DNA of 32,052 bases from a virus. This document shows, piece after piece, positions 1 through 32,052 of the stretch. The position numbers were made by a program, and so were the translations under genes. The stretch spans positions 1 through 32,052 of IMG/VR virus record IMGVR_UViG_3300045988_137377. The stretch is one strand, 5' to 3'. Position 1 is the stretch's first letter. Every line of letters starts with the position of its first letter. The notes beneath the pieces are model-generated. The model did no database searches, was not told where the DNA came from, and worked only from the letters and a program-made list of their open reading frames with translations.

Positions 1-108
1 GGTCACCCGTGCGTTGCCGTACACCTGTGCGTTGCCGTACACCCGTGCGTCTCCGGTCACCCGTGCGTTGCCGTACACCTGTGCGTCTCCAGTCACCCAT
101 GCGTTGCC
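1..108. repeat. Six tandem 18-bp units (consensus gKtcacccgtgcgtYKcc) encoding G-[ND]-A-x-V-[YT] hexapeptides
   Basis: Direct reading: units at 1-18, 19-36, 37-54, 55-72, 73-90 and 91-108. The same unit family occurs at 31884-32052. Confidence 0.95.
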
Positions 109-273
109 GGACTGAGCTAGATTTTCGTACCTTTTTATGTACCCACCAATGTTGCCTTTAATCACGTCTGAGAAAGACCTCAATGCGCGTATCCTATAAA
201 GTTTTTCTCCGAAAACTTCAATAAAATCGTCTTGTAGAATCTCATACTTATCAGAGATTGTTGCTTTTTTCAT
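1..273 (-). CDS. Hexapeptide-repeat (beta-helix-like) protein, N-terminal part (ATG at 273-271); continues at the right end of the window
   Basis: Translates MKKATISDKYEILQDDFIEVFGEKLYRIRALRSFSDVIKGNIGGYIKRYENLAQS followed by GNAWVT/GDAQVY/GNARVT/GDARVY/GNAQVY/GNARVT. It is open to base 1 (91 codons exactly). RBS AAAGGAAAG lies upstream of the ATG. Confidence 0.75.
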   Translation of the reverse strand, partial: MKKATISDKYEILQDDFIEVFGEKLYRIRALRSFSDVIKGNIGGYIKRYENLAQSGNAWVTGDAQVYGNARVTGDARVYGNAQVYGNARVT

Positions 274-366
274 TTTTCTTTCCTTTCGCTGTGTGGCCCT
301 TCCTGGCTACATTTATAGTATATCACCCTCTACCGACTAAACCAAGCTGGGAGAGGGTGAAATAAG
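274..366 (-). promoter_or_regulatory. Early cassette A: 38-nt inverted repeat (323-360) enclosing a -35-like TTGGTT (340-345), abutting an extended -10 TGATATACT (-10 at 317-322), then leader and RBS
   Basis: Gene-sense reading is TCACCCTCTCCCAGCTTGGTTTAGTCGGTAGAGGGTGATATACT...GAAAGGAAAGAAAAATG. There is a 17-nt spacer between TTGGTT and TATACT. About 73 nt are identical to cassette B. Confidence 0.6.
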
Positions 367-1218
367 TCATACTTCATTAGATGCTTGTGCTGCTTGCAGC
401 TCAAGCAGCTTGGCCTTAGCCTCTATCATTGCCACCTCGGCCTGCACGCGCTCAGTCTCAGCTCGCATAGCCTCAAGCTCAAGCTCGCGCCGCTCACGAA
501 TCGCAGCAAGCGCGGTTGTGCGCCGCTCTTCCGCAGACCACTCGACAACGCCAGCAAGCTCACGCAATGCTGTTTTCAGCCACATCTTCTCGGGGTATTT
601 CTGCCACGGCGAGAATTTACTCCGAGCTGTCTGCGACGCATCCATAGCCTCCTGTATGCGATCTTTGCCAACCTGCACCACGGGTGATATACCGCCACCT
701 GCGAGGTCGTTATATTCGACCCATGCGACAGCTTTCACTAGCTGCCCACGCTCCTCATCTGGCGCGCGCATATATTTAGGTGATTCGTCTACACCCTCGA
801 CGTACTCGAATTTATCGCCCTCGCGTACTGCTATTCGGTGAATGTTCTTTGCATACCCGGCGCGACGGATTAGCTCGACCCACCCTTTATAGCCTATGTC
901 TGCTACTATTTCGCGTCCGCGTGGCACAAAATATATTTCATCCGTACCAGGGGTAAGACCATACCGAGCCGATTTCTGCAGCATCACTGTAAGCTGCAAA
1001 GGATCATTCAGTGCCAAAGATACAAGTTTAGTGTCATTCCTGATTACCAATGACGCGGCTGCGAGCCAGTCGAGTACGTCACCTTGCATGTGCTTCGGCA
1101 TTGCGGCGGCAATGAATTCTTTTTGCGGCTCGATTATTTTTTTTTGCAGGTCGCGTATTGCGATTTGGCTACTTTGTTGGTTGCGTGAGATTTGGTTTCC
1201 TGGCTGTGGCTGTACCAT
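367..1218 (-). CDS. recT: RecT-family single-strand annealing recombinase
   Basis: Motifs ARYGLTPGTDEIYFVPRG, GYKGWVELIRRAGY and SPWQKYPEKMWLKTALRELA match the RecT family pattern. A YqaJ-type exonuclease gene lies nearby. Confidence 0.85.
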   Translation of the reverse strand: MVQPQPGNQISRNQQSSQIAIRDLQKKIIEPQKEFIAAAMPKHMQGDVLDWLAAASLVIRNDTKLVSLALNDPLQLTVMLQKSARYGLTPGTDEIYFVPRGREIVADIGYKGWVELIRRAGYAKNIHRIAVREGDKFEYVEGVDESPKYMRAPDEERGQLVKAVAWVEYNDLAGGGISPVVQVGKDRIQEAMDASQTARSKFSPWQKYPEKMWLKTALRELAGVVEWSAEERRTTALAAIRERRELELEAMRAETERVQAEVAMIEAKAKLLELQAAQASNEV

Positions 1219-1248
1219 TTTCTGTGTCCTGTCTTTCTGAGTGGATGC

Positions 1249-1572
1249 TTATAGCATTGATTCGTACGCGTGGGTGAAGAATTTTTCTGCTGATTCTTTT
1301 GAGCAGGATACGGATTCTTCGTATTCCTGGTTTGCCAGCATCGGGCTATTGGTCTCAGTTAGGATTTCGTCGAATAGCAGATCGCGTATCTCGGATTCTT
1401 GCACCTCATAATCATCTGCTAGGATTACGCGCCCCTGCATGGTTAGTTCTATATGGGTAGCGGTCGGGTCGTCGCGTTCGATCAGCAGGTGGAAGCCTAC
1501 ACCTTCTTTAGTGATTGCCCATCCGTGCATGATGCGGTTGCGGACTTCCCAGATGATTTTTCCTTTTTTCAT
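1249..1572 (-). CDS. Hypothetical protein (107 aa, acidic C-terminal half)
   Basis: ORF begins directly after cassette C, with RBS AAGGAAAGGAAAAG upstream of the ATG. No recognisable motif. Confidence 0.6.
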   Translation of the reverse strand: MKKGKIIWEVRNRIMHGWAITKEGVGFHLLIERDDPTATHIELTMQGRVILADDYEVQESEIRDLLFDEILTETNSPMLANQEYEESVSCSKESAEKFFTHAYESML

Positions 1573-1655
1573 TCTTCTTTTCCTTTCCTTGTATCTCTAG
1601 TGTATCACCCCCTACCGACTAAACCAAGCTGGGAGAGGGTGAAATACATCACTAA
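1573..1655 (-). promoter_or_regulatory. Early cassette C: inverted repeat 1605-1642, extended -10 TGATACACT (-10 at 1599-1604), short leader and RBS
   Basis: Gene-sense reading is TCACCCTCTCCCAGCTTGGTTTAGTCGGTAGGGGGTGATACACTAGAGATACAAGGAAAGGAAAAGAAGAATG. It is identical to plus-strand cassette E. Confidence 0.6.
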
Positions 1656-2558
1656 TTACTTGAATACAACAAATGGCTTCCCCTGCCCGCGCGCCTGACG
1701 CTTAGCAATAGGTCGCCCATTATACTCAAGCTCAGCGGCGCGCCCCATCTCAATGGCAGCCCAATTCTTAGCTATAGCCTCAGTCTGCTTATACAATTTC
1801 TTGATCCGTTGGAAGCGCTCAATGCGAACAGCTGCATCATTTGACGCAACCACAAGTGTGTCGTCAATTTCAGGGTGCAGCTCGCGCGCAGCCTCATAGA
1901 TCGACATGTCACCCTCTTCTTCTGAAAAGTCAGGCTCTACACCATATTCGAGAGACGCAGCAAATTCTGAACACTCTAGACGCATGCGTTCTACATATTG
2001 TTCGTCGTACTCTATGGTGTACTCACGGAACTGCATTGCGATCAATGCCGCAATAATACACTTTTTTACGCCCGTACAAAACATCTGTGCCTGCACCTGA
2101 GCATAATATCCCAGGGGTATACCATCAGCACCCGAACCAGAAGCACCCCATTCTGCCCCATTCATGGCGGTCTTGCACTCTAGTAGCGCTACTACCTCGG
2201 GTGACTTCTTGCCAGCCTCGGGAATGACTATTAATCGATCAGGCGTGGCAGTGATTACTTCACGGCTCCATGCTAGACCATGCGGATTTAGAACAGAATA
2301 TTCGGGGTGCTGCTGCGTGTACCATTGGGCGATAGCGTCTTCTAAGATGTGCCCGCGTTGAGCAACCTCATGAGTAGGCGACTGCCCCTCAATGTTTCCC
2401 TTCATTGTGTGCCATATGGCATATTTAGAGGTGTACGGCGAGACTTTTAGAATCGCAGCAACCTTGGATGCAGTGATTTTCTTCATCCACTCAGGGCTAC
2501 CTGGCTTAAGCGGCTGTTTTATTGCCCTCTTGCGCAGTTGATACCATTTCATTTCCAT
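1656..2558 (-). CDS. YqaJ-like (lambda-Exo/RecE-class, PD-(D/E)XK) recombination exonuclease
   Basis: GSPEWMKKITASKVAAIL...SPYTSKYAIW...RGHILEDAIAQWY...ATPDRLIV...LLECKTA matches the YqaJ viral recombinase layout. It is paired with RecT. Confidence 0.8.
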   Translation of the reverse strand: MEMKWYQLRKRAIKQPLKPGSPEWMKKITASKVAAILKVSPYTSKYAIWHTMKGNIEGQSPTHEVAQRGHILEDAIAQWYTQQHPEYSVLNPHGLAWSREVITATPDRLIVIPEAGKKSPEVVALLECKTAMNGAEWGASGSGADGIPLGYYAQVQAQMFCTGVKKCIIAALIAMQFREYTIEYDEQYVERMRLECSEFAASLEYGVEPDFSEEEGDMSIYEAARELHPEIDDTLVVASNDAAVRIERFQRIKKLYKQTEAIAKNWAAIEMGRAAELEYNGRPIAKRQARGQGKPFVVFK

Positions 2559-2577
2559 TTTCCTTTTATTGATAGTG

Positions 2578-2600
2578 CCGCAGGCTTAGGGAGCCTGCGG
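2578..2600 (-). other. Intergenic 9-bp stem-loop (ccgcaggct/agcctgcgg, 5-nt loop) between two minus-strand genes
   Basis: Perfect inverted repeat seen directly. No U-tract on either side, so its function (terminator, processing site) is open. Confidence 0.4.
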
Positions 2601-2616
2601 AACTTTGTACTACTGT

Positions 2617-2814
2617 TTAGATTTCGTTGTCGGCTACGATGCTCCAGAATTCACTTTCGTCTACCTTGAGTACGTATCCGTCTTCGTAGTCGCCAATCGC
2701 TAAATCTGCAATGGCTTCAACATTGTAATCATCGGCTTTTGCGTCGCTTGCTTCGATAACCTCGATAATCTCACGCTCGATAGCCTCGGTGCGGGTGGTG
2801 TATTTCTGTGCCAT
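2617..2814 (-). CDS. Small, very acidic hypothetical protein (65 aa)
   Basis: First ORF after cassette B with an RBS. The sequence is rich in D/E (EAIEREIIEVIEASDAKADDYNVEAIADLAIGDYEDGY). Confidence 0.6.
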   Translation of the reverse strand: MAQKYTTRTEAIEREIIEVIEASDAKADDYNVEAIADLAIGDYEDGYVLKVDESEFWSIVADNEI

Positions 2815-2912
2815 TTTCTTTCCTTTCGCTGTGTGGCCCTTCCTGGCTACATTTATAGTATATCACCCTCTACCGACTAAACCAAGCCAATAGAGGGTGA
2901 TATTTGCTACAT
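2815..2912 (-). promoter_or_regulatory. Early cassette B: perfect 10-bp-arm inverted repeat (2863-2900), extended -10 TGATATACT (-10 at 2857-2862), long leader identical to cassette A
   Basis: 2815-2887 is identical to 275-347. Arms are tcaccctcta/tagagggtga. Confidence 0.6.
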
Positions 2913-3308
2913 TTATTTATTGAATAAGTTCACCTGCAAAGAAGCCACAGATAAAATCGTATTTTTTTGAGACTCATAGTCTATTCCACCTGAGCCTTCG
3001 CTATTCAAAATCCACTCAGCAACACTCGCTATGCATTTCCTGTGAACGTTATCCGCGCCAGATGTTTTACCGTAAAAATCGCAGCTAGAAATCTCAGAAA
3101 GAATCATTGTCGCCCTATCCGACAGATCGTAATTGACCCATCCATAATGCGACATATCAAGATAGTCCAGAAGCTTTATAGTGTCGTCAATTCCATTCTT
3201 ATACGGTGCACGCCACGCATATTTCATGATATTGCCTAGATAGAATGGCAGCTCGTGAATAAAACTAGTGAGCTTGTGCCCGTCAATTTCGAGATAATGG
3301 TTAGACAA
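2913..3308 (-). CDS. DUF3310-like phage protein (131 aa), probable TTG start overlapping the upstream stop
   Basis: FYLGNIMKYAWRAPYKNGIDDTIKLLDYL resembles the DUF3310 signature (GN..KY..R...K....D..K...Y). GGGGGA lies upstream of the TTG. The gene looks more AT-rich than its neighbours. Confidence 0.55.
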   Translation of the reverse strand: MSNHYLEIDGHKLTSFIHELPFYLGNIMKYAWRAPYKNGIDDTIKLLDYLDMSHYGWVNYDLSDRATMILSEISSCDFYGKTSGADNVHRKCIASVAEWILNSEGSGGIDYESQKNTILSVASLQVNLFNK

Positions 3309-3672
3309 TTGGTCGTCCCCCAGTAGCTAGTAGTCTTTCGTGTCTTGCGATGCGTTCGCGCCTGGCCTGCACCCATTTTTCGTAGTACTGTTTAGTTAGC
3401 TCAGCGCTGCGATATTCGTTAGGGTCTATTACACGCTCTTCCTTATACTTACGATTCTCCTGCCTCTTGCGGCAAATTGAGCAGTCCGGATTTATTTCCG
3501 CCATGTCAATTCCGCACCCTTTACATTTAGGTGGTTCTGGTGCTTTATATCGTATGTCGCCTACGATCTTCCACTTGCGGTGCCGATTATTGCACTGCGT
3601 GCACCCCTTTGTTCTTTCCTCACGCGGGCACCCACATGTTCCACAGTGTGTTGTGTATTCCTTGCCAGCCAT
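3301..3672 (-). CDS. Cys-rich putative zinc-ribbon protein (123 aa)
   Basis: Two CxxC-type clusters (HCGTCGC...CTQC and CKGCG...CSIC) followed by a basic helical tail. Confidence 0.55.
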   Translation of the reverse strand: MAGKEYTTHCGTCGCPREERTKGCTQCNNRHRKWKIVGDIRYKAPEPPKCKGCGIDMAEINPDCSICRKRQENRKYKEERVIDPNEYRSAELTKQYYEKWVQARRERIARHERLLATGGRPIV

Positions 3673-3673
3673 T

Positions 3674-4180
3674 TTAGATTACCGCCGTTGCTAATAGTTT
3701 GAATTGGTGAAATTTCTTGACGTGCGCATCAGATGCTTGCACGATCCCTTGGTGCGTGCTCATAGGTTTCATAGTTCCGCATACACTGCAATCTGCATAC
3801 CATTTACCGTTGTATTTCCGAGACTTTACTTTGGCTTCATGAGTTATGCCGATCATGAAAACATTGAAGACTAGACAGAAGTCTTGTATATCCTGGGCTG
3901 TGCTTGCGTCTCGCAACTTCCCAGTTGCTCCTAGTAAATCTTCTGTCGTTATAGCTGTTAGCTTGCGGGTTCGCTCGTTCGCAGCTAGTTTCTTAGGCAG
4001 TGAGAATTTCTTGCGTGCTGCACCTGGCTTGAGTGCCTTTAGGGTTCGTGAGTGCCCCTGCTCATTGAAGAACATTTCGTCAATGTCTTTTGCTACCAGG
4101 TAGCTTTTCCCGTCTAGGGTTGTGATTACTCGCAGGGTTTTCCCTGTGAACCTGTTTTGTAGTAGGTATCCTACTGTCAT
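3674..4180 (-). CDS. Bro-N-like domain protein (antirepressor-like N-terminus) with a C-terminal CxxC/His cluster
   Basis: FTGKTLRVITTLDGKSYLVAKDIDEMF resembles the Bro-N core (F..xxxRv...dGxxwFvAkDv). First gene after cassette D. Confidence 0.45.
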   Translation of the reverse strand: MTVGYLLQNRFTGKTLRVITTLDGKSYLVAKDIDEMFFNEQGHSRTLKALKPGAARKKFSLPKKLAANERTRKLTAITTEDLLGATGKLRDASTAQDIQDFCLVFNVFMIGITHEAKVKSRKYNGKWYADCSVCGTMKPMSTHQGIVQASDAHVKKFHQFKLLATAVI

Positions 4181-4259
4181 TTCTTTTCCTTTCCTTGTAC
4201 TTCTAGTGTATCACCCCCTACCAGATAATCAAGACGACAGGGGGTGAAATAAATTACAG
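4181..4259 (-). promoter_or_regulatory. Early cassette D: inverted repeat 4211-4247 (TCACCCCCT/AGGGGGTGA), -35-like TTGATT in the loop, extended -10 TGATACACT (-10 at 4205-4210)
   Basis: Same architecture as A/B/C but with a different loop and a compensated stem position. Confidence 0.55.
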
Positions 4260-4580
4260 CTACCCTCGCAGATTACTCCACGTATACACATCCTGACGGT
4301 CGAAAAGCCGGTCATTGCCAGAAGTCCTAAACGGCTTCAACTTACCAGATGCGCAAGCCTTACGCACACCGTTTGGAGTCATTTCCCCCATCTCTGCGAC
4401 CTCTCGGACAGTCAATAGAGTGCTAATAATATTCTCTGGGTTATCGGGTGAGATCATTTCACGAATGCGGTCTACCTCGTCATGCAAATCTTCGAGATGC
4501 CCAATATTCTTATCTGTGAGATCATTAGCAAGCAGCTGAATATTCTTGAGCGCAATACGCAAATCTTGCAGATCGGACAT
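4260..4580 (-). CDS. Helix-turn-helix DNA-binding protein (excisionase/MerR-like HTH at the C-terminus)
   Basis: LTVREVAEMGEMTPNGVRKACASGKLKPFRTSGNDRLFDRQDV fits the HTH_17/Xis-like pattern. Confidence 0.5.
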   Translation of the reverse strand: MSDLQDLRIALKNIQLLANDLTDKNIGHLEDLHDEVDRIREMISPDNPENIISTLLTVREVAEMGEMTPNGVRKACASGKLKPFRTSGNDRLFDRQDVYTWSNLRG

Positions 4581-4954
4581 TATTTTTTCCTTTCGTATGG
4601 GCTGAAAAATATTTCAAGCCTCGGGTTTTCTCTATCTACACCACCGTGATGGAGGTGTGGGCCATCTAGGTATTCATGTGAGTCATCTGGGAGTATCCCC
4701 GCGTCCACAATCCCATCCAGAATAGCCTTTGCTGTAGGGTAATAATTTCCCGGATCGTACCTTCCGGCGCGTGCCCTGTAAATGTATACATGACATTCCA
4801 CAGGTGGTTCCAAAGCTTCTAGGCTATGTGCTGCCTCATGCCCTGCTCTTCGCCAGTATTTGGATGATTTCTGCCTAGTGCGCCAATGCTCAGACATTAG
4901 CTTGTTTATCGACAGCAGCGGGTGGCCATCCGGTATCTCAATGACTACTTTCAT
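4580..4954 (-). CDS. rusA: RusA-like Holliday junction resolvase
   Basis: RYDPGNYYPTAKAILDGIVDAGILPDDSHEYL matches the RusA catalytic-region pattern (D.xN..K...D.l....DD). Size is 124 aa. Confidence 0.7.
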   Translation of the reverse strand: MKVVIEIPDGHPLLSINKLMSEHWRTRQKSSKYWRRAGHEAAHSLEALEPPVECHVYIYRARAGRYDPGNYYPTAKAILDGIVDAGILPDDSHEYLDGPHLHHGGVDRENPRLEIFFSPYERKK

Positions 4955-5349
4955 TAGGAGACTTTACGCGTGGATACTTCGTAGTCCTCGACTGTACAAA
5001 ATTCCTCGCCAACGTAAGCGCGGTACACGGCAACCTCATTCAGGAATAACTCGTACCCATCTGGAATAAGCTCAGCAAATTCTTTAGCCAGGTACTTCTC
5101 TAAGGACTTGATAATTTCCTGGTGCCCCTCGATGATCTGCTGCCAGTACTCGGATGAATCGAATGCGGTGCCGTCTTTGACCTGCACTCGCGCAAGCCCG
5201 TTCTTTATGAAGTTTTCGGTGGCTTCTACTACCTTCTTGCCACTCTCGGTGTCTTTCACAAAGGGCATGTCTTCCAGTAGTTCTACCCATGCGGCTTTTT
5301 TGTCCTGGCGGTAGGTTAGGCTGATTGCGCCTTCGAGTGTTTCGCTCAT
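4954..5349 (-). CDS. Hypothetical protein (131 aa); start moved to ATG 5349
   Basis: MSETLEGA is preceded by AAAGGAAAGAAGAAA. The ORF-track extension to 5406 would run through the cassette F promoter and hairpin. Confidence 0.6.
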   Translation of the reverse strand: MSETLEGAISLTYRQDKKAAWVELLEDMPFVKDTESGKKVVEATENFIKNGLARVQVKDGTAFDSSEYWQQIIEGHQEIIKSLEKYLAKEFAELIPDGYELFLNEVAVYRAYVGEEFCTVEDYEVSTRKVS

Positions 5350-5428
5350 TTTCTTCTTTCCTTTCTTTCGACACCTCAAGTGTATCATGCAATACCAGTA
5401 ATGCAAAGCTGGTTTTGCATGAGGTGCA
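5350..5428 (-). promoter_or_regulatory. Early cassette F: same 38-nt architecture with different arms (TCATGCAA/TTGCATGA, 5385-5422), extended -10 TGATACACT (-10 at 5379-5384)
   Basis: Gene-sense reading is TCATGCAAAACCAGCTTTGCATTACTGGTATTGCATGATACACT...GAAAGAAAGGAAAGAAGAAAATG. A nested palindrome ATGCAAA/TTTGCAT is present. Confidence 0.5.
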
Positions 5429-5977
5429 TCACATACCCTCTAATGTCCGCATCTGCCTATCACGCTCACGCTCAACAGCCCCACGCCGCATAGAACCAGA
5501 CTCACCCACACCAAAGCTGCGCACAAGCGCACGCACCTCAGGAGGCGGCGGAACAGCCTCCCTTTCGCGCGGCGCACGCGGCGCATCAAGCACGCGCAAA
5601 TCAACCTCACTGCGCACAAACTCAGGTACAGCAGCATATGCTCGCTTCCATGACTCATACACGCGTACAGCAGCCTCGTAATCCTGCTTATCCTCAATTT
5701 CAAGAGACTTGAATTTGGCTGCGAGGCGCGAGCACCTTCCAAGCGCACCGTCAATCTCGGCCTTCATTTCCTGCCAGGTCTCCAAAATGTCCCCCGGTTG
5801 GAGAATAGATATGCGGCGCGTTGAATAAAGTCGCTTTTGCACCTCGCGGGCGTACTTGTCTGGCACCTCTGCACAAATTTCTGCCCACACCGTAAGGATT
5901 TCATCAGGTAGTGGCTTTAAGCGCTGATCTAGCCCGGTGGCGACCGTATAGAGCGCTCGCATTGTGTTTAGTTCCAT
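5429..5977 (-). CDS. Hypothetical protein (182 aa), translationally coupled to the Rep-like gene
   Basis: Overlaps the upstream stop by 10 nt. No motif recognised. Position suggests a replication accessory role (inference only). Confidence 0.55.
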   Translation of the reverse strand: MELNTMRALYTVATGLDQRLKPLPDEILTVWAEICAEVPDKYAREVQKRLYSTRRISILQPGDILETWQEMKAEIDGALGRCSRLAAKFKSLEIEDKQDYEAAVRVYESWKRAYAAVPEFVRSEVDLRVLDAPRAPREREAVPPPPEVRALVRSFGVGESGSMRRGAVERERDRQMRTLEGM

Positions 5978-6933
5978 TGGGTAATTTCCTTTCGATTTTC
6001 TTCAAAGTGCTGTGCGGCGATTTGCGGGGCGTTTTTAAGTGCGGACAGATCGTAACCCATTTGGGCGGCTTTTTGCTCCCATTCGGTCATCTGTGGCTTC
6101 CGAGAGGGGAATACTGCCTCTAGGTCTTCCTCCCATCCGCGACGATTGAGCCAGGTGGACGGGTGAGGAACATATTTTAGCTCGGTACCGCTCTGTGCGA
6201 ATGCGGCTGCGTATGCCCGCATGCCGTCGATAGCGTCCTGAGACTCGCCACGTCGCTCTACAGCCCTCCAGGCGCGCTCTGACGCCTTTTTTCCTACCCG
6301 CCTGGGAACTAGTGCCCAAAACGTATCAAAATCACTTAGAGGGGCGTTCTGTGGCTTCTGATGGGTATTTGCGTTCGATACCTGGACTACCTCGTCAGCT
6401 TTTCGCCAATGCTGCTGAGTATCAGGTTCGATTTTCACAATTGCCTCGGTTCCAAGATCATCATAATCAGCGAGCGCGTCAGCGCGTAGCGGCTCTGTGA
6501 CCTGAGCCACCTCAGCGTCACGGGGGACTATAGGGGGTAAATTAGTATTATTAATAACTTTAGTATTAAGAGGAGTATGCAGCGAAACCGTCGACGGTTC
6601 AACCGCTGTCGGTAAACCTGACAACGGCTCACTATGTGAGACACTTGGGAGCTTCGCAACCATGATCGAAGAACCAAATTTGCCGCCCTCGCGAGACTGT
6701 GAAATCTCCAGATACCCGAGCTCTTGCAATTCGTCGATTAGAGATTTCACTCCCATGCGCCCCATAGGTGATGCCTCGATTAATTCTTGGCGTGAGAGTG
6801 AGTATCCAGGTTTCTGTGAAACGATGAAGCTTATAAGCCCGCGGGCACCCCATGAAAGCCTTGAATCACGCAGAATTTGGTTCGGAATCATGGTGAACGA
6901 GTGCTGGTAGTCGAAATGGTGTATAATATCCAC
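5968..6933 (-). CDS. Replication initiator / replisome-organizer-like protein (N-terminal winged-helix, C-terminal DnaD-like motif); GTG start
   Basis: N-terminus FTMIPNQILRDSRLSWGARGLISFIVSQKPGYSLSRQELIE is typical of phage/plasmid Rep wHTH domains. C-terminus reads FDTFWALVPRRVGKKASERAW...HPSTWLNRRGWEED. First gene of the leftward operon. Confidence 0.65.
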   Translation of the reverse strand: MDIIHHFDYQHSFTMIPNQILRDSRLSWGARGLISFIVSQKPGYSLSRQELIEASPMGRMGVKSLIDELQELGYLEISQSREGGKFGSSIMVAKLPSVSHSEPLSGLPTAVEPSTVSLHTPLNTKVINNTNLPPIVPRDAEVAQVTEPLRADALADYDDLGTEAIVKIEPDTQQHWRKADEVVQVSNANTHQKPQNAPLSDFDTFWALVPRRVGKKASERAWRAVERRGESQDAIDGMRAYAAAFAQSGTELKYVPHPSTWLNRRGWEEDLEAVFPSRKPQMTEWEQKAAQMGYDLSALKNAPQIAAQHFEENRKEITQWN

Positions 6934-6973
6934 CGGGACATCCTTTCTGTTTCTTATTTTCCTTTCCGGAATT

Positions 6974-7008
6974 GCCTCCGAGGCTTTCGCCTCGGGGGCT
7001 TTTTCGTT
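6974..7008 (+). terminator. Textbook intrinsic terminator on the PLUS strand, inside the leader of the minus-strand Rep gene
   Basis: gcctccgaggc-tttc-gcctcgggggc followed by tttttcgtt. It forms an 11-bp stem with one G.U wobble in plus-sense RNA (C.A mismatch in minus sense), a tetraloop and a U-run. Confidence 0.7.
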
Positions 7009-7070
7009 ATCCAGTATATCACGTTAGTGTATGGTGCTATACCAGATGTACATGTGATAATAAACACACA
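7009..7070. promoter_or_regulatory. Divergent promoter region: leftward extended -10 TGATATACT (-10 at 7013-7018, minus) and rightward extended -10 TGTGATAAT (7053-7061, plus)
   Basis: Both -10 elements carry the TGn extension, and the leftward one has the same GTGATATACT context as the cassettes. Palindrome ATGTACAT at 7046-7053 lies between them. Confidence 0.5.
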
Positions 7071-7102
7071 AAAACAGCTTGCGCTTCGACCCATGTAATG
7101 CC

Positions 7103-7384
7103 ATGATTAAATACATGAAATACATTCTGATTCACGCCGACACATTAGAGCACCTGGCACAAAAGCTCACCAAAGTATTCAGGCAGCACGGCAAATACTG
7201 CTCATACGCAACCGCGAAAAAGGTTGCGGAAAAATACACCACAATCGCAGGCAACGGCATACACGCAAAACAGCGAGGCTACGCACGGGCAATGAAATTC
7301 ATCCTACACACCTCAATCGACAACCTAGTCGCCGATCTGCGATACGAAATCGCACAGCAGAAAGTGGTGCGGTTCGATGCGTAA
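7103..7384 (+). CDS. Hypothetical protein, first gene of the rightward operon (start uncertain: TTG 7079, ATG 7103 or ATG 7115)
   Basis: ORF lies downstream of the rightward promoter with no clear SD. No motif recognised. Confidence 0.5.
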   Translation: MIKYMKYILIHADTLEHLAQKLTKVFRQHGKYCSYATAKKVAEKYTTIAGNGIHAKQRGYARAMKFILHTSIDNLVADLRYEIAQQKVVRFDA

Positions 7385-7664
7385 TATTAGCCTGAAAATC
7401 ACCAAAGACAAGTCCGGTGTAGTCGAGGTAAAACCGCATGACACCACAGAGCTAGCATTCGAGGAGAATACTCGCCTAGAAAACGCGCTAAAAGAGCTAA
7501 ACTTCCTGCGGTCATACTCTAGCCGCCTAACCATCCGTCTGGCTTCCTGGGATGCCGTAGAAGCTGCATTCGATGGTGAGAGAGTGCGAGTCGTACCGGA
7601 TAAAACCAAAAATCCGGATAAATATGCAGAAATCTTATTCTCGATTGGTGAAGAAAATGAGTAG
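7377..7664 (+). CDS. Hypothetical protein (95 aa)
   Basis: Its ATG overlaps the upstream stop (ATGCGTAA), indicating a coupled operon. Confidence 0.55.
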   Translation: MRNISLKITKDKSGVVEVKPHDTTELAFEENTRLENALKELNFLRSYSSRLTIRLASWDAVEAAFDGERVRVVPDKTKNPDKYAEILFSIGEENE

Positions 7665-7983
7665 CAAGACGATTCTGCGCCATGTAGTCACTGTGCACAT
7701 TATCGAAGATACGGCGGCACTAAATACATCTCGGCTCTCGCAAGCGGCTTTCAAAAATGCTTACGCACAGTATGCAGCGATAGCCAAAGAGCTAGACGAA
7801 TATGACATGCCACTCACAGATAAGCTCGTATGGCGCACACAGCGTGTAGAAGACCTTGTAGACAAGGCGCTAAAGCGATACGGTATGCGTGTAGCACGAA
7901 GCAAAACCGCCATAGAGTCACTGAATAGCAAGAAAGGCTATTTAGCCCTGCATATTACCCTGGAAGAAGCGAAAGGTGAGTAG
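7657..7983 (+). CDS. Hypothetical protein (108 aa); start moved to ATG 7657
   Basis: MSSKTILRHV follows GGTGAAGAAA and overlaps the upstream stop. The ORF-track start 7573 would overlap the preceding gene by 90 nt. Confidence 0.55.
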   Translation: MSSKTILRHVVTVHIIEDTAALNTSRLSQAAFKNAYAQYAAIAKELDEYDMPLTDKLVWRTQRVEDLVDKALKRYGMRVARSKTAIESLNSKKGYLALHITLEEAKGE

Positions 7984-8329
7984 TAAACACAAACCGCCAT
8001 ATTTGCTATTTCGTTTCGATCATAAAGAGCTTGTGGTGCTTTACAGGCGCAAGCCAGATAAAGACAGGCTCATATACACATTCCGTAGGTTAGTTAGTGG
8101 TGCTGTCGAAATATTCACTCGACGAGGCGACATGAAAAACAGTCCTATAGCAGCAGCAACGTTTGAACTTCCGGAGGAAAACATAGCGAATGCCATAGTT
8201 ACAATGACGGATGCCAGTAAATATGTTGATATTCTAAGCGCATTGCCTTGGGAGGCTGATGTTATTGAGGGCTTGCCTGCTGACGTAGATACACTAATAC
8301 GGGAACGCATTCCTGGATACTATAACTAA
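7976..8329 (+). CDS. Hypothetical protein (117 aa), GTG start
   Basis: GAAAGG precedes the GTG, which overlaps the upstream stop (GTGAGTAG). Confidence 0.55.
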   Translation: MSSKHKPPYLLFRFDHKELVVLYRRKPDKDRLIYTFRRLVSGAVEIFTRRGDMKNSPIAAATFELPEENIANAIVTMTDASKYVDILSALPWEADVIEGLPADVDTLIRERIPGYYN

Positions 8330-8411
8330 ATATGACATATATCACCCTCTCCCAGCTTGGTTTAGTCGGTAGGGGGTGATACACTAGAGATACAAGGAAA
8401 GGAAAAGAAGA
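8330..8411 (+). promoter_or_regulatory. Early cassette E, the only plus-strand copy: inverted repeat 8342-8379, extended -10 TGATACACT (-10 at 8380-8385), leader and RBS
   Basis: 8342-8421 is the exact reverse complement of 1563-1642 (cassette C plus the first 10 nt of the downstream CDS). Confidence 0.6.
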
Positions 8412-8606
8412 ATGAAAAAAGCAATCATCACCGCAATAATCATTAGCGCAGTAGTCATAGGAGCATCAGTAATCGTATGCACCCCCACCCTAAGCATCAT
8501 GGAGTTCGACGCAGAACAAATGGCATACGGAATCTTCGCAATGGCAGCAGCAGCACTAGGCGCACGCGAATACGTCGCGTGGAAAACCCGAAAGGAAAAG
8601 AAATAA
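8412..8606 (+). CDS. Small membrane protein (64 aa, two hydrophobic segments, basic C-terminus)
   Basis: IITAIIISAVVIGASVIVC and AYGIFAMAAAALGA segments. Strong RBS from cassette E. Confidence 0.6.
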   Translation: MKKAIITAIIISAVVIGASVIVCTPTLSIMEFDAEQMAYGIFAMAAAALGAREYVAWKTRKEKK

Positions 8607-8752
8607 TGAAAATCACCGAATACTGCTACAACCTACTAGTAGGGATGTGCATACTCCTGTTTATCGGCTTCACTATCGCCGCAATATTCGGGAATTACTT
8701 CGCTGCGCTGCCAGCGCTCCTGTTCCTCGTAATCCTAAAACTCACACTCTAG
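8606..8752 (+). CDS. Small membrane protein (48 aa, two hydrophobic segments); start at ATG 8606 (TAATG overlap)
   Basis: MKITEYCYNLLVGMCILLFIGFTIAAIFGNYFAALPALLFLVILKLTL. AAGGAAAAG lies upstream. Confidence 0.55.
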   Translation: MKITEYCYNLLVGMCILLFIGFTIAAIFGNYFAALPALLFLVILKLTL

Positions 8753-8764
8753 AAAGGCACACTC

Positions 8765-9010
8765 ATGAAAATCACCAAAAACATTGCAACATTCGGTTGG
8801 GTAATGCTCGGTCTATCCGCATTTCTTCTATGCGTAAACATTCTATCCGCAATGATCGGAGAAACACTCTACGCGGATATGCTGTATGTTGCAGGATGCG
8901 CGATCATCGGAGTAGCGCTACTTGCACCGCACGCACTAGCTGTGTATATGCAATATAAATTGCACCAGATTGAGTATCAAGACGTAAAATTAGCTGATAT
9001 ACTGGATTAG
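8765..9010 (+). CDS. Small membrane protein (81 aa, two hydrophobic segments)
   Basis: MKITKNIATFGWVMLGLSAFLLCVNIL and LYVAGCAIIGVALLAP segments. Confidence 0.55.
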   Translation: MKITKNIATFGWVMLGLSAFLLCVNILSAMIGETLYADMLYVAGCAIIGVALLAPHALAVYMQYKLHQIEYQDVKLADILD

Positions 9011-9080
9011 TACCAAGTAAACAAAACTATCTATAATGGATTCAGGTATTGTTTTCTGGTTTCCGGACGAAACAAAATTA

Positions 9081-9118
9081 TCCCCCGCACCTAATTCATG
9101 TGGCAGGTGCGGGGGATA
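9081..9118 (-). terminator. Convergent (probably bidirectional) terminator between the plus-strand block and the end of the late operon
   Basis: 13-bp perfect stem atcccccgcacct/aggtgcgggggat. In minus sense it is followed by AATTTTGTTT. It lies 10 nt after the holin-like gene stop. Confidence 0.75.
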
Positions 9119-9127
9119 ATTCTATAC

Positions 9128-31012: not shown

Positions 31013-31615
31013 TTACTCCCCCTGAGACTCTAGAGCATGTAGCTCAATAGCTAGCGTATTACGCACAGTATTTTCCTGCTCGCTAGTCAGCCCAGCAGAA
31101 GCCAGAGCGCGCGAAATAGCCGCCGAAATAGCAGAAACCTTAGCTGCCTCAATCTGCACTATCTTACCTGCAATATCGTGTTTCATAGCCATATCAAGGA
31201 ACTTAGCTGTGCGATCCATCGCCTCGCCATACAGCTGCACGGCGGCACGGATTTGTAGCGAGCCCTCTTCTGTGAAGTGCTCAATATTATGATTTAGCTC
31301 ATTCACCATACGTCCGAGAACATCCTTGAAATGGATTGCTTCAGTAGTAAGCCTCTGTAGCTCTATGAGCGGGTCTGTTACACGTGACTCGATAGGCACA
31401 TCAACCGCCAGCGCACCCACTTCACGGCGAACCTTTTCTTTTACCACATATCGCGCATAATTCAGCTTTGCAGCTTTTTTGATTTGCGGTGCAGAGCCGC
31501 CATGCTTACGGCACACAGTAGTACCTTTCACAGCGTAGCTTCGGCAAGGGTTCCCTGTCCTACGGCTAACCGCCGTACATTTCATGCCCTGGTACCATTC
31601 TTTTTTACTAGTCAT
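31013..31615 (-). CDS. terS: Terminase small subunit (200 aa); start moved to ATG 31615
   Basis: GGAGGT lies 7 nt upstream of MTSKKEW. The N-terminal Cys/His motif CTAVSRRTGNPCRSYAVKGTTVCRKHGGSAP is common in actinophage small terminases. Immediately upstream of terL. Confidence 0.6.
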   Translation of the reverse strand: MTSKKEWYQGMKCTAVSRRTGNPCRSYAVKGTTVCRKHGGSAPQIKKAAKLNYARYVVKEKVRREVGALAVDVPIESRVTDPLIELQRLTTEAIHFKDVLGRMVNELNHNIEHFTEEGSLQIRAAVQLYGEAMDRTAKFLDMAMKHDIAGKIVQIEAAKVSAISAAISRALASAGLTSEQENTVRNTLAIELHALESQGE

Positions 31616-31619
31616 AATG

Positions 31620-31650
31620 TAACCTCCATGCATATTATACCTGGAGGTTA
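31620..31650 (-). promoter_or_regulatory. 9-bp-arm hairpin (TAACCTCCA/TGGAGGTTA) that pairs the terS Shine-Dalgarno; the loop contains TATAAT
   Basis: Minus-sense reading is TAACCTCCAGGTATAATATGCATGGAGGTTACATTATG. The right arm contains the GGAGGT RBS. Confidence 0.5.
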
Positions 31651-31661
31651 CAACTGGTTGT

Positions 31662-32052
31662 TTAGTCTAGTCCAAATTGGATTTTAGCGGTTTCGATTAA
31701 AGATTTATAAACCTTACCATGCATATTATCGCCATGAGTAGACTCGACAGCTTCAAGAAATTCTTCAATAGAACCAGTGAAACAACCCCTAGTTACCCTA
31801 ACTCCTATCTCTGAGTCCCTGTAGATTGTCAAACATCCACGCTCACTGCCAATATCTAATACAGTAATCATATCCACCTGGCTGGTCACCCGTGCGTTGC
31901 CGTACACCCGTGCGTCTCCGGTCACCCGTGCGTTGCCGTACACCTGTGCGTTGCCGTACACCCGTGCGTCTCCGTACACCTGTGCGTTGCCGTACACCCG
32001 TGCGTCTCCAGTCACCCATGCGTCTCCGGTCACCCGTGCGTTGCCGTACACC
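31662..32052 (-). CDS. Hexapeptide-repeat protein, C-terminal part (5' end runs off the window and continues from base 273-1)
   Basis: (V)YGNARVT GDAWVT GDARVY GNAQVY GDARVY GNAQVY GNARVT GDARVY GNARVT, then SQVDMITVLDIGSERGCLTIYRDSEIGVRVTRGCFTGSIEEFLEAVESTHGDNMHGKVYKSLIETAKIQFGLD and a TAA stop. Confidence 0.75.
   Translation of the reverse strand, partial: VYGNARVTGDAWVTGDARVYGNAQVYGDARVYGNAQVYGNARVTGDARVYGNARVTSQVDMITVLDIGSERGCLTIYRDSEIGVRVTRGCFTGSIEEFLEAVESTHGDNMHGKVYKSLIETAKIQFGLD
31884..32052. repeat. 9.4 tandem 18-bp units of the same family as 1-108
   Basis: Units start at 31884, 31902, 31920, 31938, 31956, 31974, 31992, 32010 and 32028. The last 25 nt are identical to bases 1-25. 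Confidence 0.95.

What the first reader, a model, noticed from the sequence alone, without database searches (positions are those of the whole stretch)
274..8411. Family of hairpin + extended -10 cassettes bounding every early gene module, with compensatory stem changes
Six intergenic gaps share one architecture when read in gene sense: A 274-366, C 1573-1655, B 2815-2912, D 4181-4259, F 5350-5428, and E 8330-8411 on the opposite strand. Each has a 37-38-nt inverted repeat that starts TCA and ends TGA, and in the A/B/C/D/E copies the loop holds a -35-like TTGGTT/TTGATT. The 3' arm supplies the TG of an extended -10 (TGATATACT or TGATACACT). A purine-rich RBS follows. The stem sequences differ but stay complementary: TCACCCTCT/AGAGGGTGA in A and B, TCACCCCCT/AGGGGGTGA in D, and TCATGCAA/TTGCATGA in F. 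The single non-Watson-Crick position in C/E is a G.U wobble only in the sense transcript. This covariation argues for a conserved RNA or DNA structure, most simply a terminator for the upstream module fused to the promoter of the next one, rather than a mere protein operator. The Rep promoter at 7013-7018 has the same GTGATATACT context but no hairpin. Two leader types exist: A/B share about 73 identical nt, and C/E share 80.
Basis: partly seen in the sequence, partly recalled or inferred. Interest (0 to 1): 0.7.

Follow-up and report, generated by a model that had tools for sequence, protein, structure and literature searches.

The report
Promoter-plus-hairpin cassettes between phage gene modules
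A small phage from human oral metagenomes separates its gene modules with six copies of one compact cassette, a host-type promoter built into an RNA hairpin, which resembles the "PeSL" promoter/terminator cassettes of T4-like phages but has its own fixed geometry.

Summary
Six intergenic cassettes (A, C, B, D, F on the minus strand, E on the plus strand) share one design. Each has a 37-38-nt inverted repeat running TCA...TGA, a TTG-type -35 in the loop, and a 3' arm that supplies the TG of an extended -10 (TGATAYACT). A purine-rich ribosome-binding site and an ATG follow.

A covariance model finds exactly these six copies in the window. It finds 68 copies at six conserved positions in about 20 related ~32-kb contigs.

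It is paired in 92% of cells, against 35-51% in slid controls. Strand asymmetry is strong:
- G·U outnumbers A·C 131 to 22.
- The sense RNA hairpin is more stable than the antisense one in 61 of 63 distinct copies.

This favours a structure on the sense strand, most simply RNA made by read-through from the upstream module. It argues against a protein operator or a cruciform. TAYACT and the TT of the -35 are invariant, which supports a real promoter.

Termination itself is not shown. No U-tract follows the stem, so a leaky attenuator or a 3'-end stabiliser is equally possible. Cassette A heads the structural operon, so the cassettes do not bound early genes only. Copies also exchange between positions.

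The closest known analogue is the PeSL cassette of T4-like phages. I rate this a new variant of a known kind, of moderate interest.

The parts
274..366 (-). Cassette A. Hairpin 323-360, -35 TTGGTT 340-345, TGATATACT 317-325. Long leader with a 5' stem-loop at 293-310, then RBS and ATG at 271-273. It drives the hexapeptide-repeat gene and, downstream of it, the terminase/structural operon.
   Evidence: (E 1.9e-14)
1573..1655 (-). Cassette C. Hairpin 1605-1642, -35 1622-1627, TGATACACT 1599-1607, short leader. It lies between YqaJ-like exonuclease (upstream) and the 107-aa ORF plus RecT (downstream).
   Evidence: E 7.7e-16
2815..2912 (-). Cassette B. Hairpin 2863-2900 (fully paired, 19 bp when G·U pairs are counted), -35 2880-2885, TGATATACT 2857-2865. 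Long leader with a 5' stem-loop at 2833-2850. It drives a 65-aa ORF (2617-2814) that is present in only some relatives.
   Evidence: (-32.7 kcal/mol, z -7.7)
4181..4259 (-). Cassette D. Hairpin 4211-4247 (37 nt), -35 TTGATT 4227-4232, TGATACACT 4205-4213. It lies between the HTH_17 gene (upstream) and the 168-aa ORF (downstream).
   Evidence: E 2e-12
5350..5428 (-). Cassette F, the second stem class (TCATGCAA/TTGCATGA plus inner ACCAG/CTGGT). Hairpin 5385-5422, TGATACACT 5379-5387. An extra outer helix CACCTC/GAGGTG brackets the -10. It follows the Rep-g11 operon.
   Evidence: E 1.6e-13; F class at this position in all 13 relatives
8330..8411 (+). Cassette E. Hairpin 8342-8379, -35 TTGGTT 8357-8362, TGATACACT 8377-8385, short leader. 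It lies between four small plus-strand genes and three small membrane-protein genes. It is 94% identical over 98 nt to cassette C in inverted orientation.
   Evidence: I1; E 2.1e-16
7013..7070 (-). Rep promoter region. It is a degenerate copy of the cassette (CTGGTA...TACACT followed by a second TGATATACT) without stem complementarity. It is the only promoter of this type with no co-directional gene upstream, so it serves as a natural control.
   Evidence: same in L002, L008
2575..2600 (-). A plain GC-rich hairpin (CCGCAGGC...GCCTGCGG) after the 65-aa ORF. It has no U-tract and no promoter. YqaJ, downstream of it, has no promoter of its own, so this hairpin must allow read-through.
9085..9125 (.). 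Canonical bidirectional terminator at the convergence of the two transcription directions. On the minus strand the stem is followed by TAATTTTGTTT. It shows that U-tract terminators are used elsewhere in this genome.

Best explanation
Each cassette is a composite regulatory unit that does two jobs with the same ~60 bp.

As double-stranded DNA it is a host primary-sigma promoter of the extended -10 type: TTGnnn, a 17-nt spacer, then TGnTAYACT. It starts a short (~20 nt) or long (~40 nt, with a 5' stem-loop) leader that ends in a strong purine-rich ribosome-binding site.

As RNA, made only when polymerase reads through from the upstream module, the two arms flanking the -35 fold into a 15-bp hairpin. 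The hairpin begins 5-12 nt after the upstream stop codon and ends at the TG of the -10. It therefore marks the 3' end of the upstream module's message. Most likely it acts as a leaky, U-tract-poor attenuator or terminator, with the A/T-rich -10 serving as the weak-hybrid tail. It may also, or instead, block 3' exonucleases.

The result is a set of modules, each insulated at its 3' end and re-driven by an identical promoter. Because the copies are ~70-100 nt of near-identical sequence, they also serve as substrates for homologous exchange. Leader types and whole hairpin alleles move between positions.

Shown:
- The architecture and its conservation.
- Strand-specific pairing selection.
- Invariance of the promoter elements.
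- Exchange of cassette sequence between positions.

Inferred:
- That transcription starts at these sites.
- That the hairpin stops or stabilises RNA.
For: Real and non-random:
- The window has six covariance-model hits with E <= 2e-12 and no others.
- TGATAYACT occurs 8 times against 0.54 expected.

Conserved in relatives:
- 68 copies lie at six syntenic positions in about 20 contigs whose TerL is 95-97% identical.
- A more diverged relative (76% aa identity in the downstream gene) keeps a 14-pair hairpin.

Structure:
- 92% of cells are paired against 35-51% in slid registers, and 0 of 500 shuffles reach the observed pairing or covariation score.
- 8 pairs change on both sides. Examples are CCACC/GGTGG, CCCTA/TAGGG and the whole F class.
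- RNAalifold finds the same helix.

Strand specificity:
- G·U outnumbers A·C 131 to 22, and G·U exceeds A·C in 10 of the 12 columns where either occurs.
- Sense RNA MFE is -21.1 against -14.5 kcal/mol for antisense, with sense better in 61 of 63 copies, Wilcoxon p about 1e-11.
- Transitions that a wobble pair tolerates are 4-6 times more frequent than those that break a pair.

Pairing constraint on the left arm:
- The left-arm TCA, at about -47, has no promoter role. It is nevertheless nearly invariant, opposite the TGA that the extended -10 fixes.

Promoter:
- TAYACT is invariant even in copies that have lost the TG.
- The TT of the -35 is invariant in a variable loop.
- Unrelated phages carry TTGACA-N17-TGATATACT, so the motif is a standard extended -10 box.

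Natural control:
- The Rep promoter has no co-directional gene upstream. It is a degenerate cassette with no stem.

Exchange between copies:
- A copy's nearest neighbour lies in the same genome 18% of the time against 6% expected (p = 0.002).
- The long leader sits at positions A, B or C in different genomes.
Against: - No U-run follows the stem (2.3 T in 10 nt), and the terminator scanner calls none of the six.
- The genome uses a proper U-tract terminator at 9085-9125.
- A similar tail-less hairpin at 2575-2600 must be read through for YqaJ to be expressed. Efficient termination is therefore doubtful.
- The -35 matches TTGACA at only 3 of 6 positions, and an E. coli-type scan does not report these promoters.
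- No transcript data exist, and the host is only inferred.
- The family is a tight clade and its copies exchange sequence, so the cells counted are not independent events.
- At column pair 31-45, A·C occurs about as often as chance would predict.
- G·T wobble pairs also stabilise single-stranded DNA, so RNA is not proven.
Confidence: 0.55

Rival explanations
1. The hairpin is an RNA processing or stability element only, and polymerase does not stop there. Long read-through transcripts would be trimmed back to, or cut at, the hairpin (3' exonuclease block, RNase III/E/J site). Each module's message would then get its own half-life. The overlap with the promoter would simply be compaction in a 32-kb genome.
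For: - The strand-specific pairing evidence fits this as well as it fits termination.
- The missing U-tract is expected under this reading.
- The tail-less hairpin at 2575-2600 has to be read through.
- A related saliva phage, D_HF5_3, also has tail-less GC-rich hairpins between its early genes, without promoters attached.
Against: - If every module is transcribed by read-through, there is little reason for each to carry its own full promoter.
- The Rep promoter lacking a stem fits both readings, so it does not discriminate.
- The stem is 15 bp with mismatches, which is short for a classical RNase III site.
Confidence: 0.25
2. The inverted repeat is an operator for a dimeric phage or host DNA-binding protein, for example the HTH_17 protein at 4260-4580 or the Cys-rich 123-aa protein. 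Binding would switch all six promoters together.
For: - The outer arms TCACCC/GGGTGA are well conserved in the main class and bracket the -35.
- The genome encodes small DNA-binding proteins.
- Repeated operators in phage intergenic regions are known, for example stoperators and conserved inverted repeats in actinophages (my own knowledge, not tested here).
Against: - A duplex operator is strand-symmetric, yet mismatches are G·T rather than A·C by 131 to 22, and the sense strand folds better in 61 of 63 copies.
- The inner seven pairs vary freely in sequence but stay paired.
- The F class has entirely different arms with the same geometry.
- The half-site centres are about 34 bp apart, which is unusual for a dimer.
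Confidence: 0.08
3. The hairpin forms in single-stranded DNA of the sense strand, not in RNA. It could form on the lagging-strand template during bidirectional replication from the Rep region, as a priming or recombination signal. It could also form on the non-template strand as part of an unusual promoter.
For: - G·T pairs also stabilise DNA hairpins. With DNA parameters the sense strand is still better in 48 copies against 14.
- If replication starts near 7000, the sense strand is the lagging-strand template on both sides, which would fit the orientation of all six copies (my inference from the gene map).
- The phage encodes RecT, YqaJ and RusA.
Against: - The hairpins are tied exactly to stop codons and promoters, not to any replication feature.
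- Predicted DNA hairpin energies are small (about -8 kcal/mol).
- Hairpin promoters of the N4 type use 5-7-bp stems with 3-nt loops on the template strand and a virion RNAP, and none of that is seen here.
- The origin position is unknown.
Confidence: 0.05
4. The palindrome has no function of its own. It would be a passenger in a repeated promoter cassette, kept uniform by gene conversion between copies, and the cassettes would matter only as promoters and recombination linkers.
For: Copies clearly homogenise within genomes and move between positions. Shared ancestry therefore inflates the counts of paired cells.
Against: - Gene conversion copies sequence. It does not explain why distinct alleles differ by compensatory or wobble changes.
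- It does not explain why the interior diverges by about a quarter of its positions while 92% of pairs hold.
- It does not explain why the one copy without upstream transcription lost its stem.
- It does not explain why the mismatches are strand-biased.
Confidence: 0.05

Closest known systems
PeSLs (promoter-early stem-loops) of T4-like myoviruses: Arbiol et al. 2010 (PMC2839356); Comeau et al. 2014 (PMC4122927)
   Same: [quoted passage not shown]
- Both combine a sigma-70-type promoter, a stem-loop that can lie between or over the -35 and -10 boxes, G·T pairs in the stem, and a Shine-Dalgarno sequence.
- The PeSL authors interpret them as a terminator/attenuator for upstream transcription plus a promoter for the next gene.
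- In both, the copies act as sites of homologous exchange. Here this is seen as leader swapping and intragenomic homogenisation.
   Different: - There is no sequence relationship.
- The phage is a ~32-kb phage whose structural proteins resemble actinophage proteins, not a 170-250-kb myovirus of Gram-negative bacteria.
- The geometry here is fixed: -35 in the loop, 3' arm ending in the TG of the -10. PeSLs fall into five positional subclasses.
- There is no AT-rich block upstream of the -35.
- The cassettes bound conserved core modules (Rep, RusA, YqaJ, RecT, structural operon), not ORFan-rich hyperplastic regions.
- PeSL promoter and terminator activities were measured with lacZ fusions. Nothing has been measured here.
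Start-associated sequences and extended SAS (SAS/ESAS) of Cluster K mycobacteriophages: Pope et al. 2011 (PMC3203893)
   Same: - Both occur in phages of (probable) actinobacterial hosts.
- Both are repeated motifs at the translation starts of a subset of non-structural genes, all in one orientation.
- About half of the SAS are preceded by imperfect 17-bp inverted repeats with a 4-13-bp spacer. That is comparable to the 15-bp arms and 9-nt loop here, followed by a conserved leader and RBS.
   Different: - The SAS consensus GGGATAGGAGCCC is absent here.
- ESAS are not described as containing -35/-10 boxes.
- The function of SAS/ESAS was still unknown in 2025.
- No strand-asymmetry or covariation analysis has been reported for them in the text I read.
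Intrinsic (factor-independent) terminators
   Same: A GC-rich stem-loop lies directly after a stop codon, in gene sense.
   Different: There is no U-tract. The tail is the -10 box (UAYACUAG...), with 2.3 U in 10 nt. The loop is 9 nt and carries a promoter element.
RNase III processing hairpins between the early genes of T7/T3 (my own knowledge, not tested here)
   Same: Hairpins at every boundary of an early polycistronic region define separate messages with stable 3' ends.
   Different: T7 sites are longer, have an internal loop, and are not fused to promoters. No cleavage data exist here.

Membership tests
PeSL-type composite promoter/stem-loop cassette | [quoted passage not shown] | tested here: met
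   Six copies in the window and 68 in relatives. The hairpin starts 5-12 nt after the stop codon, and the leader ends in GGAAAGGAAA-ATG.
PeSL-type composite promoter/stem-loop cassette | A sigma-70-like promoter consensus within the cassette | tested here: met
   TTGnnn-17 nt-TGnTAYACT. TAYACT is invariant in 68 of 68 copies and the TT of the -35 is invariant. Activity was not measured.
PeSL-type composite promoter/stem-loop cassette | A stable stem-loop overlapping or adjacent to the promoter boxes | tested here: met
   A 15-bp helix enclosing the -35. Mean sense MFE is -21 kcal/mol and 92% of cells are paired.
PeSL-type composite promoter/stem-loop cassette | The stem-loop terminates or attenuates upstream transcription (shown by reporter assay for PeSLs) | not testable with these tools
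   Only indirect evidence exists: sense-strand asymmetry and the stemless Rep promoter. The absence of a U-tract argues for weak termination at best.
PeSL-type composite promoter/stem-loop cassette | Recombination between copies shuffles the flanked genes | tested here: inconclusive
   Leader types and hairpin alleles move between positions, and copies homogenise within genomes. The 65-aa ORF module and the cassette-A-plus-hexapeptide-gene module are present or absent among relatives, but these indels are not flanked by two cassettes. One contig joins p4-cassette-g2, as expected for a C x E inversion, but it could be a misassembly.
PeSL-type composite promoter/stem-loop cassette | AT-rich tract upstream of the -35, and association with ORFan-rich hyperplastic regions of T4-like genomes | tested here: not met
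   The region upstream of the -35 is the C-rich left arm. The cassettes bound conserved replication/recombination modules in a 32-kb genome that is not T4-like.
Extended -10 promoter of the primary sigma factor | TGn immediately upstream of a TAnnnT hexamer, with a -35 TTGnnn at 16-18 bp | tested here: met
   TGATAYACT with TTG 17 nt upstream in all main-class copies. The same box follows TTGACA-N17 in unrelated phages.
Extended -10 promoter of the primary sigma factor | A mapped transcription start 6-8 nt downstream of the -10 | not testable with these tools
   No transcript data are available.
Canonical intrinsic terminator | A GC-rich hairpin followed directly by a U-tract | tested here: not met
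   The hairpin is present, but the tail has 2.3 T in 10 nt. None of the six is reported by the scanner.
SAS/ESAS of Cluster K mycobacteriophages | The 13-bp GGGATAGGAGCCC motif at the start codon, with 17-bp imperfect inverted repeats upstream | tested here: not met
   The leaders here are ACAAGGAAAGGAAAAG or the GTAGCC...GGCTAC type. Only the general layout is similar.
Known RNA families (Rfam 15) | A match at gathering score | tested here: not met
   The whole window gave no hit. There are no tRNAs either.
Palindromic protein operator | Half-sites conserved in sequence and symmetric on the two strands | tested here: not met
   Mismatches are strand-biased (131 G·T against 22 A·C). The inner stem varies in sequence but stays paired. 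The F class has different arms.

The most novel reading that the evidence does not exclude
The fixed geometry may itself be the mechanism. The hairpin ends at -14, so a read-through polymerase held by the hairpin 10-13 nt further on would sit at the next promoter's +1. The extended -10 box would then be displayed in its bubble exactly as in an open promoter complex. Hairpin and -10 element could together form a sigma-dependent pause or a U-tract-independent termination site. That site would hand the polymerase, or its sigma factor, directly to re-initiation at the same spot. Termination of one module would thus be coupled to initiation of the next.
Probability: 0.1. Interest if true: 0.8.

Novelty: new variant of a known kind. 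Interest (0 to 1): 0.45.

Why it matters
Composite promoter/terminator cassettes that also act as recombination linkers have been described so far essentially for large T4-like phages. Finding an unrelated, more regular version in a small phage that probably infects an oral actinobacterium suggests the design is a general solution for modular phage genomes.

This family is a convenient test system. It offers six near-identical units per genome and dozens of natural stem variants. The left arm can be mutated without touching the promoter core. A stemless promoter is built in as a control.

The family could help settle whether hairpins without a U-tract terminate transcription in Actinobacteria, which is still disputed (my own knowledge). 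It could also provide compact insulated expression parts.

If the element is only an ordinary promoter next to an ordinary stabilising hairpin, the result is a tidy annotation of transcription units in an uncultured phage clade.

Tried and rejected
- Megablast of 1-9000 against GenBank phages gave no match.
- A scan of 185,579 species genomes for the cassette core gave only single chance hits in unrelated taxa. No prophage was found and no host could be assigned directly.
- Rfam and tRNA scans found nothing.
- The E. coli-type promoter/terminator scanner does not report the cassettes at all. I take this to reflect a weak -35 and a missing T-run, not the absence of the elements.
- I looked for relatives at intermediate distance, to get independent covariation. 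TerL-based loci are all 95-97% identical. Homologues of the 168-aa protein stop at 74%. YqaJ homologues jump from 83% to 40%. The clade is therefore isolated. Only one more diverged copy (L092) was found, and it keeps the hairpin.
- The nearest isolate, the saliva phage D_HF5_3, has plain hairpins between its early genes but no cassettes.
- I considered an outer helix between the stop-codon box (TAGTGA/ATGAC) and the -10. I dropped it because its register differs between copies.
- I considered N4-type DNA hairpin promoters and rejected them. The stem and loop sizes are wrong and the favoured strand is the non-template one.
- I did not count the contig with the p4-cassette-g2 order as proof of inversion. 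Another IMG/VR contig of this family is plainly a join of two different genome variants.

Full report
**What the window is**

The 32,052-bp window looks like a complete, circularly permuted phage genome.
- An 18-nt coding repeat sits at both ends and belongs to one hexapeptide-repeat gene that starts at 273 on the minus strand.
- The minus strand carries, in transcription order: a replication initiator (5968-6939), a 182-aa ORF, a 131-aa ORF, RusA, an HTH_17 protein, two unknown ORFs, a DUF3310 protein, a 65-aa ORF, a YqaJ-type exonuclease, a 107-aa ORF and RecT.
- After RecT come the hexapeptide-repeat gene and the terminase/structural operon, running round to 9128.
- Seven small plus-strand genes occupy 7103-9010.
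- The two transcription directions converge on a canonical terminator at 9085-9125.

The terminase and capsid proteins are closest to those of a saliva phage (62% and 42% identity). The next closest are phages of Brevibacterium, Arthrobacter and Glutamicibacter. The nearest non-family YqaJ homologues, at 34-40% identity, include proteins named from Nocardia and Corynebacterium. All related contigs come from human-microbiome samples. The host is therefore probably an oral actinobacterium. This is an inference. No prophage copy was found in 185,579 species genomes.

**Checking the observation**

Read in gene sense, all six gaps have the reported layout:
- a stop codon,
- 5-12 nt of spacer,
- TCA-stem / loop containing TTGGTT, TTGATT or TTTGCA / stem-TGA,
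- TAYACT,
- a leader, a purine-rich RBS, and ATG.

The -35 TTGnnn lies 17 nt from TAYACT, and the TG of the 3' arm gives TGnTAYACT. TGATAYACT occurs 8 times against 0.54 expected. A covariance model built from family copies finds exactly six sites in the window, each with E <= 2e-12. All are in gene sense and none lies in the 23-kb structural half.

**Relatives**

Two exact-pattern scans of IMG/VR, together with the covariance-model search of the loci they returned, gave 68 cassette copies. A terminase-based scan gave further contigs of the same clade. In all there are about 20 contigs, with TerL 95-97% identical and genomes of about 32 kb.

The copies sit at six syntenic positions:
- before the MSETLEG gene (always the F stem class),
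- before MTVGYLLQ,
- before YqaJ,
- before MKKGKIIW,
- before the gene that follows RecT,
- before MKKAIIT on the other strand.

A more diverged fragment (76% aa identity in the downstream protein) has a cassette with different arm details. It still forms 14 pairs, with -28.0 kcal/mol in sense and -14.8 in antisense.

**Is the stem selected as a structure?**

On an alignment of 59 distinct copies, the helix is 15 pairs with a 9-nt loop.
- 92.0% of cells form standard pairs, against 35-51% when the 3' partners are slid by 1-3 columns.
- No shuffle out of 500 reaches the observed pairing or covariation score.
- Eight pairs show changes on both sides.
- RNAalifold, given no structure, returns the same helix.

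Much of the double-change count comes from the F class, which may be a single ancient event. Independent small cases also exist: CCACC/GGTGG, CCCTA/TAGGG, and C-G/U-A/U-G/G-U/A-U all occurring at one pair.

The left-arm TCA lies near -47, where it has no promoter role. It is nevertheless almost invariant. It faces the TGA that the extended -10 fixes, which is what a pairing constraint predicts.

**On which strand?**

Transitions away from a Watson-Crick pair should give G·T and A·C equally often if the duplex, or both strands, mattered.
- Observed counts are 131 G·T against 22 A·C on the sense strand. G·T exceeds A·C in 10 of the 12 columns where either occurs.
- Transitions that wobble pairing tolerates have a mean frequency of 0.15. 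Those that would break a pair have 0.03-0.04.
- The sense RNA hairpin averages -21.1 kcal/mol and the antisense -14.5. Sense is more stable in 61 of 63 distinct hairpins.

These cells are not independent events, and at one inner pair A·C is as common as chance predicts. Even so, the bias is large and consistent. It rules out a symmetric operator or a cruciform as the main constraint. It points to a single-stranded form of the sense strand.

The hairpin lies upstream of its own predicted start site. As RNA it can therefore exist only on transcripts reading through from the upstream module, where it forms their 3' end region.

**Is the promoter real?**

- TAYACT is invariant in all 68 copies. 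This includes eight that the model found without the TGATAYACT pattern, some of which have lost the TG.
- The TT of the -35 is invariant in an otherwise variable loop.
- The same TGATATACT box appears 17 nt after a perfect TTGACA in many unrelated phage contigs, so it is an ordinary strong extended -10 element.
- Each cassette lies 24-43 nt upstream of an ATG with a strong RBS.

Promoter activity itself is inferred, not measured.

**A natural control**

The promoter in front of the replication-initiator gene (7013-7021, minus strand) has the same -10 box. On inspection it is a decayed cassette (CTGGTA...TACACT followed by a second TGATATACT) whose arms no longer pair. It is the only promoter of this type with no co-directional gene upstream. 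This fits a hairpin that acts on incoming transcripts rather than on the promoter.

**Terminator or not?**

There is no U-run after the stem. The tail is the -10 box itself (UAYACUAG...), with 2.3 U in 10 nt, and the scanner reports none of the six.

Two further points bear on this.
- The genome does use a classical U-tract terminator where the two transcription directions meet.
- A similar tail-less hairpin after the 65-aa ORF must be read through, because YqaJ behind it has no promoter.

I therefore regard efficient termination as unproven. The data fit a leaky attenuator, a 3'-end stabiliser or processing site, or both.

Cassette A precedes the hexapeptide-repeat gene and the structural operon. 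Two relatives lack cassette A and that gene altogether, so their structural genes simply follow RecT. The cassettes are therefore not a purely early device, and they do not by themselves explain timing.

**Exchange between copies**

- A copy's nearest neighbour lies in the same genome 18% of the time against 6% expected (p = 0.002). It lies at the same position 25% of the time against 16% (p = 0.04). Orthology is largely scrambled.
- The long leader, whose 5' stem-loop begins about where the transcript would start, is found at positions A, B or C in different genomes.
- The conserved block runs into the first codons (ATG-A/GAA-AAA-G).
- The 65-aa ORF with its long-leader cassette is present in the window and in one other variant, and absent in most.
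- In the window, C and E are 94% identical over 98 nt in inverted orientation.
- One contig has the order p1-p4, cassette, g2, RecT, which is what recombination between C and E would give. However, another contig of this family is clearly a join of two different variants. Misassembly cannot be excluded.

**Comparison with known systems**

The closest described elements are the PeSLs of T4-like phages. Those are intergenic cassettes with a sigma-70-type promoter, a stem-loop placed between or over the promoter boxes, G·T pairs, an SD and the next ATG. They have been shown by lacZ fusions to promote and to terminate, and they mediate modular shuffling (PMC2839356, PMC4122927).

The present cassettes work like PeSLs on every feature that can be read from sequence. 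They differ in several ways:
- They are not related in sequence.
- They occur in a small phage of a probably Gram-positive host.
- They have one rigid geometry.
- They lack the AT-rich upstream tract.
- They bound conserved core modules rather than ORFan-rich regions.

The SAS/ESAS repeats of Cluster K mycobacteriophages share the layout of an inverted repeat plus a conserved start region. Their consensus is different and their function is unknown. Rfam has nothing matching.

**Verdict**

The finding is real and well conserved. It is best read as a PeSL-like composite of a host promoter and a sense-strand RNA hairpin that closes the upstream message.

Its novelty is that of a new variant of a known kind. 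The strand-asymmetry evidence and the stemless control are what this analysis adds. What remains open is whether the hairpin terminates, pauses or only stabilises, and whether its exact register with the -10 box has a mechanistic meaning.

Noticed in passing
window 31619-31651 (-): A 12-bp hairpin (GTAACCTCCAGG...CATGGAGGTTAC) lies directly in front of the first gene of the terminase/structural block. Its loop reads TATAATAT. Its 3' arm contains the GGAGG ribosome-binding site for the ATG at 31615. It is conserved in relatives, including those that lack cassette A. It may be a translational or late-transcription control element.
   Followed up: partly
window 8995-9125 (+): A seventh TGATATACT box lies inside the 3' end of the last small membrane-protein gene. 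It is followed by about 80 nt of strongly conserved non-coding sequence and then the 9085-9125 terminator hairpin. This is a candidate small RNA of about 110-120 nt. It shares TGATATACTGGAT with the Rep promoter. Rfam gave no hit.
   Followed up: partly
window 1-164 and 31866-32047: 18-nt tandem repeats at both window ends encode a hexapeptide repeat (YGNA[RQ]V[TY]GDA...) of one gene split by the window boundary. The reading frames do not join exactly, so the repeat array may be collapsed or permuted in the assembly.
   Followed up: partly
window 2575-2600 vs L017 about 6990-7015: The hairpin after the 65-aa ORF has the same stem in both genomes, but its loop is approximately reverse-complemented (TCCCTAA against CTAGGGT), as if the palindrome had flipped. 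The L017 copy of the ORF also carries an in-frame stop.
   Followed up: no
L078 and L091 (IMGVR_UViG_3300006261_000005, 58.5 kb); L015/L084 (IMGVR_UViG_3300006545_000010): The 58.5-kb contig contains two different variants of this phage joined head to tail (for example Rep 71% against 85% identity to the window). The 25-kb contig has p1-p4, cassette, g2, RecT. That is either a genuine inversion between cassettes C and E or a repeat-induced misassembly.
   Followed up: partly
window 6974-6999: The Rep leader contains an 11-bp GC-rich hairpin. On the plus strand it is followed by TTTTTCG, so it looks like a terminator for antisense transcription entering the Rep gene. On the minus strand it is a 5'-UTR hairpin.
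   Followed up: no
window 293-310 and 2833-2850 (-): The long leader carries a stem-loop (GTAGCC-AGGAAG-GGCTAC in relatives) that begins about where the transcript should start, like a 5' mRNA-stabilising hairpin. Both window copies have an A·C mismatch in it (GGCCAC).
   Followed up: partly
L040 (OR148987.1, saliva phage D_HF5_3) 31393-38024: The nearest sequenced phage also has GC-rich hairpins without U-tracts in most early intergenic gaps, but with no promoter motif attached. Tail-less hairpins between early genes may be common in this group of phages.
   Followed up: partly
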